Sequence record: PP925840.1
Length of the DNA stretch: 64,000 nucleotides
From: Escherichia phage SholemSchwarzbard
Reading direction: 5' to 3' (one strand)
Shown: piece by piece, positions 51,402 to 53,497 of the stretch
Numbering within the stretch: the first letter of the stretch is position 1
How the letters are laid out: every line of letters begins with the position of its first letter
Translations under genes and position numbers: made by a program
The notes under the pieces: generated by a model
Seen by the model: the letters and a program-made list of their open reading frames with translations, nothing else
Database searches by the model: none
Told to the model about the DNA's origin: nothing

Positions 51402-52370
51402 TTATTTCAGAAGAGTAACCTCAGCAATTTCTTCCCAACCATTTTTGTCGGTCATAATAAAGTCAGCAAGATAAAGAGCAGTACGCAGTGAAACATTGCG
51501 TAAACGATTAACATTGACTTTCATCCATGATAATGCTTTATAAGTTTCTTCATCAGAAAGACCGCGCTTTTGCATCATGTCAGTTGAAAGAATAACATCT
51601 TCAACCCTGACCATAATTTCTTCATTAGTGTGAACACCCAAATCCAAATAAACCGAGCGGGACACTAATGCTTGTAAATGTGGAGCAAGTTTAGTACCAC
51701 GGTCTAATTCGCGGTCAATGTCAACGTTTGTGATAAAAACAATCGTTCCTTTAAATTCAAACTCACGGTCAATGCCTTTTTCTTCCAAGTAAGAAGATGC
51801 AGTGCTCCAGCAGACTTTACGGGTCTCTCCAGTGTCCAGAGCAGCTTTCAGAAGATTAAGAATGTCCATATCAGAGAAAACATCCACATCATCAATCAAA
51901 AGGACAGAATTCTCTTCACGATTATTCCAAAGCTGTTCATAAAGACCGATACCGGAGATTTTACCGTTAATACTTTTATATTCAATGTATCCAATATCAT
52001 TTGCTTTATTTAAAGCTTTATCTAAAGAATACGTTTTACCAATACCTGCTGCGCCAGAGATAATTAATGAACGAATATTTCCATTAATAATACCATTCGT
52101 CATCATTCCCATAACATTAAATCTTTTATTAATGCGGGTTTTCATATCTTCATATGATTCTTTAACTTCTTCAACTTTTACACCATCATATGAAATGTCT
52201 GATTTGTAAACCCAAACACCGCGACGTTTACCGTCAATTTCAACAAAAACTTTACCATCTCCTTGTGCATCTACCGGAGCATTGTCTGGGAACCATTCGC
52301 CTAAGAGCTCAAAAGTTCCAGAGATTTCTTTACCGAAGTAGATACCCTTATTGATAGTTACAGTTTTCAT
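51402..52370 (-). CDS. P-loop ATPase (AAA-like), about 322 aa
   Basis: Walker A GAAGIGKTY and Walker B LLIDDVD; ATG at 52370 with GGAGA SD; track ORF extends spuriously through promoter and terminator to 52490. Confidence 0.75.
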   Translation of the reverse strand: MKTVTINKGIYFGKEISGTFELLGEWFPDNAPVDAQGDGKVFVEIDGKRRGVWVYKSDISYDGVKVEEVKESYEDMKTRINKRFNVMGMMTNGIINGNIRSLIISGAAGIGKTYSLDKALNKANDIGYIEYKSINGKISGIGLYEQLWNNREENSVLLIDDVDVFSDMDILNLLKAALDTGETRKVCWSTASSYLEEKGIDREFEFKGTIVFITNVDIDRELDRGTKLAPHLQALVSRSVYLDLGVHTNEEIMVRVEDVILSTDMMQKRGLSDEETYKALSWMKVNVNRLRNVSLRTALYLADFIMTDKNGWEEIAEVTLLK

Positions 52371-52404
52371 TTTATTCTCCAAATCCGTATCAGTTGATAG
52401 TTGT

Positions 52405-52434
52405 ATAGTACCATAAAGCTTTATGCTTGTAAAC
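52405..52434 (-). promoter_or_regulatory. T4-type early promoter (cassette copy)
   Basis: plus atagta 52405-52410 and gtaaac 52429-52434. Confidence 0.55.
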
Positions 52435-52466
52435 CGTTTTGTGAAAAAATTTTTGAAATAAAAAAG

Positions 52467-52484
52467 GGGAGCCCGAAGGCTCCC
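52467..52484 (-). terminator. intrinsic terminator, C(UUCG)G hairpin GGGAGCC-CGAA-GGCTCCC plus U-tract
   Basis: perfect 7-bp stem followed on mRNA strand by CUUUUUUAUUU; right after stop of the nucleotidyltransferase gene. Confidence 0.7.
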
Positions 52485-52486
52485 TA

Positions 52487-53497
52487 TCATTTATAATAAC
52501 TTCGATGGTTTTCAAGATAAACCCTCTCAAGGAAGTCATCCCAGAAACCCATGTCTACTTTTTGCTGCATACCGTTCTTAGAAGCTTCAGTAGATGCTGC
52601 TTCTACTTGATCGACCACATCTTCCAAAAACTCTTGAACTGTTTTAAATGGATGCTTACCCAACTTCACGTCGAGAATAAATGGAGCATCTTGGAGTGGA
52701 TAAACCAAGTCACCAGTTTTGTAAATTTCCAATAGTTGAAGTCCACCACGACAAGCATGGCTCAGAGCTTTCCAGTCAATGCCTTCGTTGGCTTCGGCCT
52801 TACGAGCACGTTCACCGTATTCAGCATCTAATTTGTTCAGTGACTGCTTAAGCTCAATAAGAGAAAGAGTTGTCTGATATTTACGACCCAACACAGTGTA
52901 GAACGTTTGTGGGCCTGTTTTCTCATGATTATGGAACACCCATTCACAGAATTCGTTTTCTGGAAGACGATGCTTAATATCTTCAACTTTAGTACGACGC
53001 TGCTTAATAGAACCATCTTCTTGGTAATCAACCCATTGCTCAGGGATTTGATTAACTACTTTCAATACATCACGTAATGCAGCCAAACGAGAACCCTTGA
53101 CACCGTATTTAGAAGCTTGCTTGCGGACATATCCTAAATATGATTTCATGTTAGTCGTATAAAAACGAGAACGGTTGTCTTGAATAAACTTCCACACATC
53201 AGGCAAATCAGATTTAACCACTAGTTCAGGTGGAGTGTGAAGCATATCCAACGCTACAGTTTCACCATCTGCTGCTAATTTAAAGAAATATTTAAGACTG
53301 TATAGTTCATGGTCAATATCATCTTTAGTGTTTTTAGATGATGTGTTGTTAGTGTTTTTACTCATGTGCTCTTTGACATTTCCGATAAGAATATCGCGAG
53401 CAGGAGGAACAAAGATTTCTTTAAAATCTACATCAGATTCTGGGGTAGAAGTTCCATAAAGATGACTACCAAAATAGCTTTTCATTACTGTTTTCAT
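52487..53497 (-). CDS. putative nucleotidyltransferase (Pol-beta superfamily fold), 336 aa
   Basis: N-terminal GSHLYGTSTPESDVDF matches the G[GS]-x9-13-D-x-[DE] nucleotidyltransferase signature, with a downstream acidic residue (ALDMLH). Confidence 0.65.
   Translation of the reverse strand: MKTVMKSYFGSHLYGTSTPESDVDFKEIFVPPARDILIGNVKEHMSKNTNNTSSKNTKDDIDHELYSLKYFFKLAADGETVALDMLHTPPELVVKSDLPDVWKFIQDNRSRFYTTNMKSYLGYVRKQASKYGVKGSRLAALRDVLKVVNQIPEQWVDYQEDGSIKQRRTKVEDIKHRLPENEFCEWVFHNHEKTGPQTFYTVLGRKYQTTLSLIELKQSLNKLDAEYGERARKAEANEGIDWKALSHACRGGLQLLEIYKTGDLVYPLQDAPFILDVKLGKHPFKTVQEFLEDVVDQVEAASTEASKNGMQQKVDMGFWDDFLERVYLENHRSYYK

What the first reader, a model, noticed from the sequence alone, without database searches (positions are those of the whole stretch)
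51402..53497. Nucleotidyltransferase plus P-loop ATPase gene pair bracketing a terminator-promoter cassette
The 336-aa ORF (52487..53497) starts with GSHLYGTSTPESDVDF, the G[GS]-x(9-13)-D-x-[DE] signature of Pol-beta-fold nucleotidyltransferases. The next gene downstream (51402..52370) is a P-loop ATPase (GAAGIGKTY, LLIDDVD). A membrane protein and two paralogous genes lie immediately upstream. The nucleotidyltransferase could make or modify nucleotide second messengers, repair tRNA 3' ends, or nucleotidylate a host target. Its class cannot be decided from the sequence alone.
Basis: partly seen in the sequence, partly recalled or inferred. Interest (0 to 1): 0.6.

Follow-up and report, generated by a model that had tools for sequence, protein, structure and literature searches.

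The report
T4 nrdC.11 nucleotidyltransferase and nrdC.10 ATPase

Summary
The window is a T-even phage, and the two ORFs are 99% identical to T4 NrdC.11 and NrdC.10.

NrdC.11's class can be decided. It passes Pfam's threshold for RlaP (PF10127). Its GS / DxD / D62 residues are invariant in 62 homologs of 35-55% identity and align with canonical RlaP. Its high-confidence model resembles minimal and KNTase-type nucleotidyltransferases, not cGAS/OAS or CCA enzymes. A 2025 preprint already names T4 NrdC.11 as an RlaP and shows that Pseudomonas RlaPs add 1-2 NMPs to RNA 3'-OH ends. The closest bacterial homologs often sit beside Pnkp/Hen1, RtcB, Ro60 or a second RlaP.

NrdC.10 is a true AAA+ ATPase that fits no assigned family. 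The pairing is lineage-specific: 9 of 80 and 30 of 78 related loci. The genes are separated by a PeSL cassette, and T2 has a gene inserted there. In distant T4-like phages NrdC.10 lies next to a UvsW-like helicase, near SSB, UvsX and UvsY.

Verdict: already known genes, with untested but clearly predictable biochemistry. Modest interest.

The parts
52487..53497 (-). nrdC.11 ortholog (336 aa plus TGA stop): RlaP-family Pol-beta nucleotidyltransferase. The model shows an NTase core (residues ~1-115), a long helix (118-150), a small beta-rich insert (154-208) and a C-terminal helical bundle (213-335).
53426..53470 (-). Codons for G10-S11 ... D22-x-D24, the hG[GS] and [DE]h[DE] nucleotidyltransferase motifs. 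The third carboxylate, D62, is encoded at 53312-53314.
   Evidence: G10, S11, D22, D24 and D62 are invariant in 62 homologs of 35-55% identity. They align with the S/G, D49, D51 and D88 of canonical RlaP (hhalign E = 6.5e-8).
51402..52370 (-). nrdC.10 ortholog (322 aa plus stop): AAA+ ATPase with an N-terminal beta domain (1-62), an ATPase base and a helical lid.
   Evidence: 99% identical to T4 NP_049708. phrog_1250 at E = 1e-166. Only sub-threshold AAA Pfam hits. AF2 pLDDT 89.9. Foldseek returns only generic AAA+ matches: dynein, ORC/Cdc6, NSF, RFC, Hda, RuvB, PspF.
52032..52055 (-). Walker A of NrdC.10 (GAAGIGKT, residues 106-113). Walker B (VLLIDD) is at 51888-51905. The invariant S-R-S (237-239), a candidate arginine finger, is at 51654-51662.
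   Evidence: G106, G109, G111, K112, D160, D161, N215, S237, R238, S239, R291 and R296 are invariant in 34 homologs. The motif order lines up with gp44 (Walker A, Walker B, sensor 1, SRC), but the match is not statistically significant.
52457..52484 (-). Intrinsic terminator of the nrdC.11 transcription unit: GGGAGCC-UUCG-GGCUCCC followed by C-UUUUUU. It starts 2 nt after the nrdC.11 stop codon.
   Evidence: Terminator scan. Folds at -15.6 kcal/mol, z = -2.98. Nearly identical in T4.
52405..52434 (-). T4-type early promoter for nrdC.10: G-TTTACA, 17-nt spacer with TG, then TACTAT. An A/T-rich upstream tract lies at about 52435-52456. Together with the terminator it forms a PeSL cassette.
   Evidence: 14 matches in the window against 0.05 expected, all on the - strand. 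It matches the published T4/PST PeSL consensus TTTACW-N17-TAYWAT (PMC4122927).
52377..52380 (-). Shine-Dalgarno GGAG, 6 nt upstream of the nrdC.10 ATG.
   Evidence: Read directly from the sequence.
53494..53940 (-). 148-aa predicted membrane protein with two hydrophobic spans. Its TGA stop overlaps the nrdC.11 ATG (ATGA), so the two genes share a transcription unit and may be translationally coupled.
   Evidence: phrog_944 'membrane protein'. Homologs lie near nrdC.11 in 38 of 78 phage loci.
53943..55016 (-). Two tandem paralogs (173 aa and 181 aa) of the T4 y05I family. They lie upstream of nrdC.11 in the same orientation.
   Evidence: Both match PF24449 and PF24448. They share 27% identity, E = 2e-12.

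Best explanation
The locus holds two independent early genes of a T-even phage.

**1. nrdC.11**
- It encodes a divergent 'long' member of the RlaP family of Pol-beta nucleotidyltransferases. This is shown.
- By analogy with the biochemically characterised Pseudomonas RlaPs, it most likely uses NTPs and two metal ions held by D22, D24 and D62 to add one or two untemplated nucleotides to the 3'-OH of broken RNA. This is inferred.
- In infection it would act between the phage end-healing enzyme (Pnkp) and the sealing ligases (Rnl1, Rnl2). It would refill tRNA anticodon loops from which host nucleases of the RloC type have excised a nucleotide. This is inferred.
- It is transcribed with the upstream membrane-protein gene and the y05I genes, and its transcript ends at the hairpin 2 nt after its stop codon.

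**2. nrdC.10**
- It is a separately promoted AAA+ ATPase of an unassigned family, conserved across the T4 superfamily. Its role is unknown.
- Its conserved neighbours in distant T4-like phages are SSB, UvsX, UvsY and an SF2 helicase. This points weakly to DNA replication or recombination, not to nucleotidyl transfer.

**3. The intergenic cassette**
- The terminator-promoter element between the genes is a PeSL, a known mobile regulatory cassette at which T4-type genomes gain and lose genes.
For: **Identity**
- The DNA is 97-98% identical to T-even phages. The proteins are 99% identical to T4 NrdC.11 and NrdC.10.
- T4 and T2 RefSeq already annotate nrdC.11 as a nucleotidyltransferase.

**Family of NrdC.11**
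- PF10127 RlaP scores 44.1 bits against a cutoff of 23.
- hhalign of the NrdC.11 clade against canonical RlaP gives 94.6% probability and E = 6.5e-8, with GS, DxD and the third Asp in register.
- The catalytic residues are invariant in 62 homologs.
- The AF2 model (pLDDT 93.9) has minimal or KNTase-type NTases as its best structural neighbours.

**Literature**
- COG3541 assignment in 2006.
- Pseudomonas RlaPs add 1-2 NMPs to RNA 3'-OH and not to DNA or protein, and they rescue aminoacylation of a tRNA that lacks one nucleotide. The same preprint names T4 NrdC.11 as an RlaP in cluster 5 of its network.
- The 3'-OH product suits 5'-phosphate RNA ligases. That T4 Rnl1 and Rnl2 are of this type is from my own knowledge.
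- In jumbo phages RlaP distribution tracks RNA ligases.

**Context of the closest bacterial homologs** (32-54% identity, full length)
- 16 of 80 loci have Pnkp, Hen1, RtcB or Ro60 within 5 kb. 21 of 80 are directly followed by a canonical RlaP.
- In a Pfam census of same-strand neighbours, RlaP, PNKP_ligase, RtcB, RTC and Hen1_L are among the most frequent families.

**Independence of the two genes**
- NrdC.11 lies within 5 kb of NrdC.10 in only 9 of 80 NrdC.10 loci, and NrdC.10 lies within 6 kb in 30 of 78 NrdC.11 loci.
- In two large contigs the genes are about 40 kb and 150 kb apart.
- T2 has an extra gene between them, flanked by two cassettes.
- The cassette matches the published PeSL consensus.

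**NrdC.10**
- AAA+ motifs are invariant and the fold is AAA+.
- A UvsW-like helicase lies nearby in 49 of 79 loci, 1-2 genes downstream in 38 of them. SSB, UvsX and UvsY lie upstream.
Against: - No activity of T4 NrdC.11 has been measured.
- The Pfam match covers only the NTase core (model positions 23-142 of 249). The C-terminal half is not detectably homologous to canonical RlaP: hhalign gives only a motif-level match, K-x3-[H/Y]-x2-R, which is not significant. It also carries a roughly 55-residue beta insert, so the substrate could differ.
- In phages nrdC.11 is not next to any RNA ligase or Pnkp gene.
- Only 20% of bacterial homolog loci show RNA-repair genes.
- The PfRlaP crystal structure was not in the PDB copy, so no direct superposition was possible.
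- The nrdC.11-mobD.3 block can be lost from T4 without loss of viability in the laboratory. This fits an accessory role but says nothing specific.
- Untemplated addition restores the right base only part of the time.
- For NrdC.10, the DNA-transaction idea rests on gene order alone. The comparison with the clamp loader gp44 is not significant (E = 0.12).
Confidence: 0.6

Rival explanations
1. The nucleotidyltransferase and the ATPase form a two-component system, for example an ATP-driven regulator or loader for the NTase, or an anti-defence module.
For: They are adjacent and co-oriented in this window, in T4 and in many enterobacterial T4-likes. Both are early genes of unknown function.
Against: - Adjacency holds in only 9 of 80 and 30 of 78 related loci, and it is lost even among some relatives with 82-83% identical NrdC.11.
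- A terminator and an independent promoter separate the genes.
- T2 has a gene inserted between them.
- In distant phages both genes exist but lie 40-150 kb apart.
- Bacterial NrdC.11-like genes have no NrdC.10-like neighbour cluster. PADLOC gives no hit.
Confidence: 0.07
2. NrdC.11 repairs or edits tRNA 3' ends (CCA-like repair), not anticodon-loop breaks.
For: Pseudomonas RlaPs label full-length tRNAs and any RNA 3'-OH with all four NTPs. T-even phages encode tRNAs (from my own knowledge).
Against: - There is no match to CCA-adding enzyme or poly(A) polymerase families in Pfam or in the fold searches.
- RlaP prefers the 3' end of the 5' tRNA half in a nicked-tRNA mimic over the acceptor end.
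- Classical genetics indicates that T4 tRNA maturation depends on the host CCA enzyme (from my own knowledge, not tested here).
Confidence: 0.15
3. NrdC.11 makes a nucleotide or oligonucleotide signal or decoy (in the manner of HalB, CD-NTase or OAS), or it nucleotidylates a host protein or toxin (in the manner of MntA) to disarm a defence system.
Against: - These matches cover the generic minimal NTase core at 11-15% identity.
- No cGAS, CD-NTase or OAS structure appears among the listed fold-search matches, although I know many are in the PDB.
- MntA scores 13 bits against a cutoff of 60. PADLOC gives no hit.
- Sequence evidence places the protein in RlaP. Its bacterial relatives sit in RNA-repair operons, not defence operons.
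- Pseudomonas RlaPs did not modify proteins or DNA.
Confidence: 0.08
4. The locus is ordinary hyperplastic-region cargo. NrdC.11 is a vestigial or inactive NTase with no role in infection.
For: The nrdC.11-mobD.3 block is lost spontaneously in genome-reduced T4. The gene sits in a plastic region with PeSLs and homing endonuclease insertions.
Against: All catalytic residues are invariant across homologs down to 35% identity. The family has 3410 cluster representatives at E <= 1e-3. This implies purifying selection on an active enzyme.
Confidence: 0.05

Closest known systems
Phage T4 NrdC.11 (NP_049709; COG3541 / PF10127)
   Same: 331 of 336 residues are identical, with the same neighbours downstream and the same intergenic cassette.
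   Different: T4 has the HNH homing endonuclease gene mobD immediately upstream, where this phage has a small membrane-protein gene. The T4 reference reads N60 where this phage and at least 90% of the clade have D.
Pseudomonas RlaP (PfRlaP, PaRlaP), the RNA ligase-associating Pol-beta NTases of RtcB operons (bioRxiv 10.64898/2025.12.29.696909)
   Same: Same Pfam family. The GS, DxD and third-Asp core aligns with canonical RlaP. Both have an NTase domain plus a helical C-terminal domain. The closest bacterial relatives are embedded in RNA-repair gene clusters.
   Different: NrdC.11 is about 65-80 residues longer, with a beta-rich insert at 154-208. Its C-terminal half is not significantly alignable to canonical RlaP. 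It belongs to a separate cluster of the published similarity network (cluster 5 against 1a). In phages no RNA ligase gene is adjacent. Its activity is untested.
Minimal and KNTase-type nucleotidyltransferases with solved structures (HalB 9dbh, 3c18, KNTase/ANT(4'), LinB, MNT)
   Different: Identity is 8-15% and there is no sequence-level family match. The partner genes and substrates of those systems (HalA, HEPN toxin, aminoglycosides) have no counterpart here.
Phage T4 NrdC.10 (NP_049708; phrog_1250) and AAA+ ATPases of the clamp-loader and initiator groups (gp44, RFC, Cdc6/ORC, Hda)
   Same: 99% identical to T4 NrdC.10. It has the AAA+ base plus lid fold with Walker A, Walker B, a sensor-1 Asn, an S-R-S motif where clamp loaders have S-R-C, and a sensor-2 Arg.
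   Different: No family-level match was found. Pfam hits are below threshold. Foldseek E-values are about 1e-5 with TM about 0.4, spread over many AAA+ clades. hhalign against gp44 gives E = 0.12. The N-terminal beta domain has no identified counterpart.
PeSL (promoter-early stem-loop) cassettes of T4-type phages (Arbiol 2010, PMC2839356; Comeau 2014, PMC4122927)
   Same: A GC stem-loop is followed by an early promoter that matches TTTACW-N17-TAYWAT. It lies in a hyperplastic region and coincides with an insertion difference between close relatives (T2).
   Different: Nothing material. This is a typical copy.

Membership tests
RlaP (Pfam PF10127) | Profile match above the curated gathering score | tested here: met
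   44.1 bits against a cutoff of 23, E = 2.6e-11. Only model positions 23-142 of 249 are covered. All 120 listed close homologs carry PF10127.
RlaP (Pfam PF10127) | Pol-beta NTase catalytic set: hG[GS], [DE]x[DE] and a third carboxylate, conserved and in register with canonical RlaP | tested here: met
   G10, S11, D22, D24 and D62 are invariant in 62 sequences. hhalign against canonical RlaP gives E = 6.5e-8, with D62 aligned to D88 and D84 to E110. The residues sit on the expected strands of the model.
RlaP (Pfam PF10127) | C-terminal helical domain homologous to that of canonical RlaP, forming the RNA cleft | tested here: inconclusive
   The model has a helical C-terminal bundle. hhalign of the C-terminal halves finds only the motif DWKAxSHAxR aligned to K-x-Y-x-Y-A-x-R, at 1.8% probability. 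The PfRlaP coordinates are not in the PDB copy.
RlaP (Pfam PF10127) | Genomic association with RNA ligase and RNA repair genes | tested here: inconclusive
   Not met in this window or in 78 phage loci: no ligase or Pnkp gene is adjacent. Met for the closest bacterial homologs: 16 of 80 loci have Pnkp, Hen1, RtcB or Ro60, and 21 of 80 have a tandem canonical RlaP.
RlaP (Pfam PF10127) | Adds 1-2 NMPs to RNA 3'-OH (Mn2+-preferring), not to DNA or protein | not testable with these tools
   Shown only for the Pseudomonas enzymes.
CD-NTase / cGAS / OAS signalling nucleotidyltransferases | cGAS/OAS-type fold and profile match | tested here: not met
CCA-adding enzymes / poly(A) polymerases | PolyA_pol head domain with neck, body and tail domains | tested here: not met
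   No Pfam match. The only related structure listed, Cid1, has Foldseek probability 0.07.
MNT/HEPN (MntA-HepT) toxin-antitoxin | MntA profile match and an adjacent HEPN toxin gene | tested here: not met
   NF047752 scores 13.2 bits against a cutoff of 60. The neighbouring genes are a membrane protein, y05I paralogs and an AAA+ ATPase.
Hailong HalB | HalB-like NTase encoded next to the HalA effector | tested here: not met
AAA+ ATPase (NrdC.10) | Walker A, Walker B, sensor 1, arginine finger and sensor 2 on an alpha/beta base plus helical lid | tested here: met
   The motifs are invariant. The AF2 model has pLDDT 89.9. 156 PDB chains match at E <= 1e-3, and all those listed are AAA+ proteins. 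Individual Pfam AAA models stay below their cutoffs (23.1 against 27).
Clamp-loader clade of AAA+ (gp44 / RFC / gamma) | S-R-C arginine-finger motif and profile similarity to clamp-loader subunits | tested here: inconclusive
   The invariant S-R-S (237-239) aligns with the SRC of gp44, but hhalign gives E = 0.12. PHROG clamp-loader hits reach about E = 1e-4. RFC is only one of many AAA+ clades among the Foldseek hits.
PeSL regulatory cassette | GC stem-loop terminator followed by an early promoter (TTTACW-N17-TAYWAT), located at a site of gene gain or loss between related phages | tested here: met
   (14 matches against 0.05 expected). Published consensus. The T2 insertion is flanked by two cassettes.

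The most novel reading that the evidence does not exclude
NrdC.10 is an unrecognised replication or recombination factor of the T4 superfamily. It would be a clamp-loader- or initiator-like AAA+ ATPase that works with the UvsW, UvsX, UvsY and gp32 machinery. In marine T4-like phages it keeps its ancestral position beside the UvsW-like helicase. In T-even phages it has been displaced into the nrdC hyperplastic region, next to the unrelated RNA-repair enzyme NrdC.11.
Probability: 0.2. Interest if true: 0.6.

Novelty: already known. Interest (0 to 1): 0.27.

Why it matters
T4 is where RNA repair was discovered, as Pnkp plus Rnl1 acting against the PrrC anticodon nuclease. Nucleases such as RloC also excise a nucleotide and are thought to defeat that repair. 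If NrdC.11 refills the gap, T4 would carry a complete heal, fill and seal pathway, and a long-standing asymmetry in this arms race would become directly testable with existing mutants and enzymes. That idea is already in the literature, so the present finding adds confirmation and context, not discovery.

Two points here go beyond the papers I could read:
- The NrdC.11-type 'long' RlaPs in bacteria usually travel with a canonical RlaP or with Pnkp/Hen1 or RtcB.
- NrdC.10 is a widely conserved AAA+ ATPase of T4-like phages, of unknown function, whose conserved context is recombination genes.

Tried and rejected
**Searches that returned nothing useful**
- Sequence searches of the PDB with either protein or its profile found nothing.
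- NCBIfam and PADLOC gave no usable hits.
- The afdb50 fold library was unavailable, so full-length similarity to AlphaFold models of canonical RlaP could not be measured. The PfRlaP crystal structure is not in the PDB copy.
- The Burroughs & Aravind 2016 paper that named RlaP is not held. The supplements of the T4 genome-reduction paper are not held. A search by T4 locus tags and accessions returned only irrelevant papers.

**Comparisons that were not significant**
- hhalign of the C-terminal halves of NrdC.11 and canonical RlaP.
- hhalign of NrdC.10 against gp44.
- In both cases the motifs line up, but I do not count them as evidence of membership.

**Ideas considered and rejected**
- An NTase-ATPase operon. 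See the first rival explanation.
- A functional link between NrdC.11 and NAD salvage. NadV, NMNAT-Nudix and PRPP-synthetase genes lie nearby in about 9-10 of 78 phage loci. I attribute this to shared residence in the same plastic region.
- Significance of a weak hit of the beta insert to the Mtr4 arch domain (E = 0.65).
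Full report
**What is there**

The window is a T-even (Tequatrovirus) phage. The 2.3-kb stretch is 97-98% identical to T2, T4-like coliphages and relatives, and 478 phage records cover at least 80% of it. Downstream landmarks are tk (56973..57554) and rI (56412..56705).

- The ORF at 52487..53497 (-) is 331/336 identical to T4 NrdC.11.
- The ORF at 51402..52370 (-) is 313/316 identical to T4 NrdC.10 over the aligned part.
- T4 and T2 RefSeq annotate nrdC.11 as 'nucleotidyltransferase' and nrdC.10 as hypothetical.

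**Check of the observation**

- *NTase motif.* FGSHLYGTSTPESDVDF is at residues 9-25. It is the only match to the strict Pol-beta motif among the 99 window ORFs of at least 100 aa.
The mechanical ORF that reaches 52490 runs through the promoter and terminator.
- *ATPase motifs.* Walker A (GAAGIGKT) and Walker B (VLLIDD) are present.
- *Intergenic cassette.* The 116-bp spacer holds GGGAGCC-UUCG-GGCUCCC plus a U-run, starting 2 nt after the nrdC.11 stop codon. It folds at -15.6 kcal/mol, z = -2.98. An A/T-rich tract follows, then GTTTACA-N17(TG)-TACTAT. That promoter pattern occurs 14 times in the window, always on the - strand, against 0.05 expected.
- *Upstream genes.* There is a 148-aa protein with two hydrophobic spans whose TGA overlaps the nrdC.11 ATG. 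There are also two y05I-family paralogs with 27% identity, both matching PF24449 plus PF24448.

**The nucleotidyltransferase**

*Profile evidence.* NrdC.11 passes the Pfam gathering score for PF10127 (RlaP) at 44.1 against 23 bits. Only the NTase core is covered. It also falls in PHROG 388, 'nucleotidyltransferase'.

*Conservation.* An exhaustive HMMER search found 3410 cluster representatives at E <= 1e-3. In an alignment of 62 full-length homologs with 35-55% identity, these residues are invariant: G10, S11, S21, D22, D24, N56, D62, Y131, R230, K243, H247, R250, P267 and K278.

*Structure.* The AF2 model is confident (pLDDT 93.9). It shows beta1-GS-helix-beta2(DxD) with D62 on a later strand (61-67). 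A long helix, a small beta-rich insert (154-208) and a helical bundle follow. I had no access to the coordinates, so I could not measure the triad geometry itself.

*Comparison with canonical RlaP.* A profile-profile comparison with ten canonical 255-273-aa RlaPs (themselves PF10127 at E = 1e-51 to 1e-62) gives 94.6% probability and E = 6.5e-8 over the core. GS, DxD, D62/D88 and D84/E110 are in register. The C-terminal halves do not align significantly. The best local match puts DWKAxSHAxR on K-x-Y-x-Y-A-x-R.

NrdC.11 is therefore a divergent, longer subfamily of RlaP.

**What is already published**

- Nolan et al. 2006 matched nrdC.11 to COG3541 nucleotidyltransferase and nrdC.10 to AAA ATPases.
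- According to a review of jumbo phages and a 2025 preprint, Burroughs and Aravind named PF10127 'RlaP' for its linkage to RNA ligases. I could not read their paper.
- In jumbo phages the distribution of RlaP mirrors that of RNA ligases.
- Carruthers, Fatma and Huang (bioRxiv, December 2025) showed several things about two Pseudomonas RlaPs. They add one or two NMPs to RNA 3'-OH ends and prefer Mn2+. They do not act on DNA or protein. They prefer the 5' half of a nicked tRNA, and they partly restore aminoacylation of a tRNA missing one anticodon-loop nucleotide.
- The same authors place T4 NrdC.11 in cluster 5 of the family network. They propose RlaP as the antidote to 'smart' ribotoxins such as RloC.
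- They note that the 3'-OH product suits 5'-phosphate ligases. That T4 Rnl1 and Rnl2 are ligases of this kind is from my own knowledge.
- The nrdC.11-mobD.3 block is lost spontaneously in viable genome-reduced T4.

I fetched 80 bacterial and archaeal loci that encode full-length NrdC.11-like proteins of 32-54% identity.

- In 21 of them the NrdC.11-like gene is directly followed by a canonical RlaP gene.
- In 16 of them a Pnkp, Hen1, RtcB or Ro60 (TROVE) gene lies within 5 kb.
- 31 loci show one or both features, and many contigs are truncated.
- A Pfam census of 150 same-strand neighbours puts RlaP first (14), followed by AAA_33 (4; it matches the Pnkp kinase region), PNKP_ligase (3) and RtcB (3). 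RtcA (RTC), Hen1_L and HAD_PNKP each occur twice.

The association with RNA repair thus holds for the NrdC.11 clade itself, not only for the Pseudomonas clade.

In 78 phage loci no ligase or Pnkp gene is adjacent. Recurrent neighbours are hyperplastic-region genes. In Aeromonas-, Vibrio- and Acinetobacter-type phages they include NadV, NMNAT-Nudix and PRPP-synthetase genes.

**The ATPase**

*Motifs.* NrdC.10 has these invariant motifs: Walker A (G106...GKT113), Walker B (D160, D161), a sensor-1 Asn (N215), S-R-S (237-239) and R291/R296.

*Structure.* The model (pLDDT 89.9) shows an N-terminal beta domain (1-62), an AAA+ base and a helical lid.

*Family.* Foldseek finds 156 PDB chains at E <= 1e-3, all weak (TM about 0.4) and spread over dynein, ORC/Cdc6, NSF, RFC, Hda, RuvB and PspF. 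Pfam AAA models stay below their cutoffs. The profile search of PDB sequences gives only Cdc6 at E = 0.13. NCBIfam gives only Hda at 14.6 bits against a cutoff of 194.8. Against the phage's own clamp loader gp44 (window 29081..30037, -) the motifs line up, including SRS with SRC, but E = 0.12. NrdC.10 is a real AAA+ ATPase of an unassigned family (phrog_1250).

**Are the two genes a pair?**

The evidence says no.

- Among 80 viral loci with an NrdC.10 homolog, an NrdC.11 homolog lies within 5 kb in only 9: eight with at least 66% NrdC.10 identity, where it lies upstream, and one distant locus (L041), where it lies about 2.3 kb downstream.
- Among 78 loci with an NrdC.11 homolog, NrdC.10 lies within 6 kb in 30. 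It is missing even next to some NrdC.11 proteins of 82-83% identity.
- Two large contigs carry both genes, about 40 kb and about 150 kb apart.
- nrdC.11 is transcribed with the upstream membrane-protein gene (ATGA overlap) and terminates before nrdC.10, which has its own promoter.
- In T2 a 161-aa gene, annotated as an RNA polymerase ADP-ribosylase, sits between the two genes. It is flanked by two copies of the terminator-promoter cassette.

The cassette matches the published PeSL element (stem-loop plus TTTACW-N17-TAYWAT), which mediates modular shuffling in T4-type genomes. A second PeSL lies at about 55961-56030.

In distant marine and freshwater T4-like contigs the conserved context of NrdC.10 is SSB, UvsX, UvsY, NrdC.10, then an SF2 helicase. 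A UvsW-like helicase is present in 49 of 79 loci, and is 1-2 genes downstream in 38 of them. These loci are not phylogenetically independent, so I treat this as a lead only.

**Mechanism and confidence**

- *Shown:* the identity of both genes, RlaP membership of the NTase core, conservation of the triad, the AAA+ fold, the PeSL cassette, and the lack of conserved linkage.
- *Inferred:* NrdC.11 adds 1-2 untemplated nucleotides to RNA 3'-OH ends. It acts between Pnkp healing and Rnl sealing, to restore tRNAs from which a nucleotide was excised.

I put about 0.9 on 'active RlaP-type NTase' and about 0.6 on the RNA-repair gap-filling role. The divergent C-terminal half and the beta insert leave room for a different RNA or a different acceptor. 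For NrdC.10 I put about 0.2 on a DNA replication or recombination role.

**Verdict**

These are the catalogued T4 genes nrdC.11 and nrdC.10 and a typical PeSL. The class of the nucleotidyltransferase was assigned years ago, and its probable activity was proposed in a 2025 preprint. What remains open is experimental. Interest is modest.

Noticed in passing
L001 5194-5679 (phage T2, NC_054931.1 51800-52285), equivalent to the gap at window 52371-52486: T2 carries an extra 161-aa gene, annotated 'RNA polymerase ADP-ribosylase', inserted exactly between nrdC.11 and nrdC.10. It is flanked by two terminator-plus-early-promoter cassettes, a textbook PeSL-mediated insertion.
   Followed up: partly
window 53494-53940 (-), compared with T4 NC_000866 56429-57208: T4 has the HNH homing endonuclease gene mobD immediately upstream of nrdC.11. 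This phage, like T2, has a small two-span membrane-protein gene there instead, and its stop codon overlaps the nrdC.11 start (ATGA). Homologs of this membrane protein lie near nrdC.11 in 38 of 78 phage loci, more often than nrdC.10 does.
   Followed up: partly
window 2429-2462 and 48022-48055; also 24998, 50966, 52405 and 55961 (all on the - strand): Two early promoters 45 kb apart are identical over 34 nt. Four others share the downstream segment GGTACTATACAACTATC. A second complete PeSL (AGTCTCC-TTCG-GGAGACT, a T-run, then a promoter) lies at about 55961-56030. All 14 promoter matches are on the - strand.
   Followed up: partly
L160-L239 (bacterial and archaeal contigs), for example L210 5001-6799 and L197 5001-6740: NrdC.11-like 'long' RlaP genes (about 310-350 aa) are directly followed by a canonical 'short' RlaP gene (about 255-273 aa) in 21 of 80 loci. 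Some of these sit within Pnkp/Hen1 or RtcB/Ro60 clusters. This suggests that two distinct RlaP paralogs work together, possibly as a heterodimer or with different specificities.
   Followed up: partly
L016, L027, L034, L048, L081 and other loci among L002-L081: In distant marine and freshwater T4-like phages the NrdC.10 homolog (phrog_1250) sits in the recombination and replication module, in the order SSB, UvsX, UvsY, NrdC.10, SF2 helicase. A UvsW-like helicase is present in 49 of 79 loci.
   Followed up: partly
L240 (T4 NC_000866.4) 8439-9446 and 7347-8321: The T4 reference NrdC.11 reads N60 where at least 90% of the clade has D, and it has an ambiguous residue at position 101. The last residues of the T4 reference NrdC.10 (325 aa) depart from the AEVTLLK C-terminus conserved in other phages. 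These could be sequencing or annotation quirks in the reference.
   Followed up: no
L119, L121, L124, L130, L131, L136, L140 and L146 (phage contigs): In Aeromonas-, Vibrio- and Acinetobacter-type T4-like phages nrdC.11 lies within a few kb of NAD-salvage genes: NAMPT (NadV), NMNAT-Nudix and a PRPP-synthetase-like gene. This is probably shared residence in a plastic region.
   Followed up: partly
L022 about 6100-11000: A metagenomic phage has about 15 tandem paralogous small ORFs, most of 76-91 aa, immediately downstream of its NrdC.10 homolog.
   Followed up: no
window 52490-53497 (-), residues 154-208: The beta-rich insert that distinguishes NrdC.11-type from canonical RlaP gave a weak, non-significant profile hit to the Mtr4 arch region (E = 0.65). 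It may be a small RNA-binding barrel.
   Followed up: no
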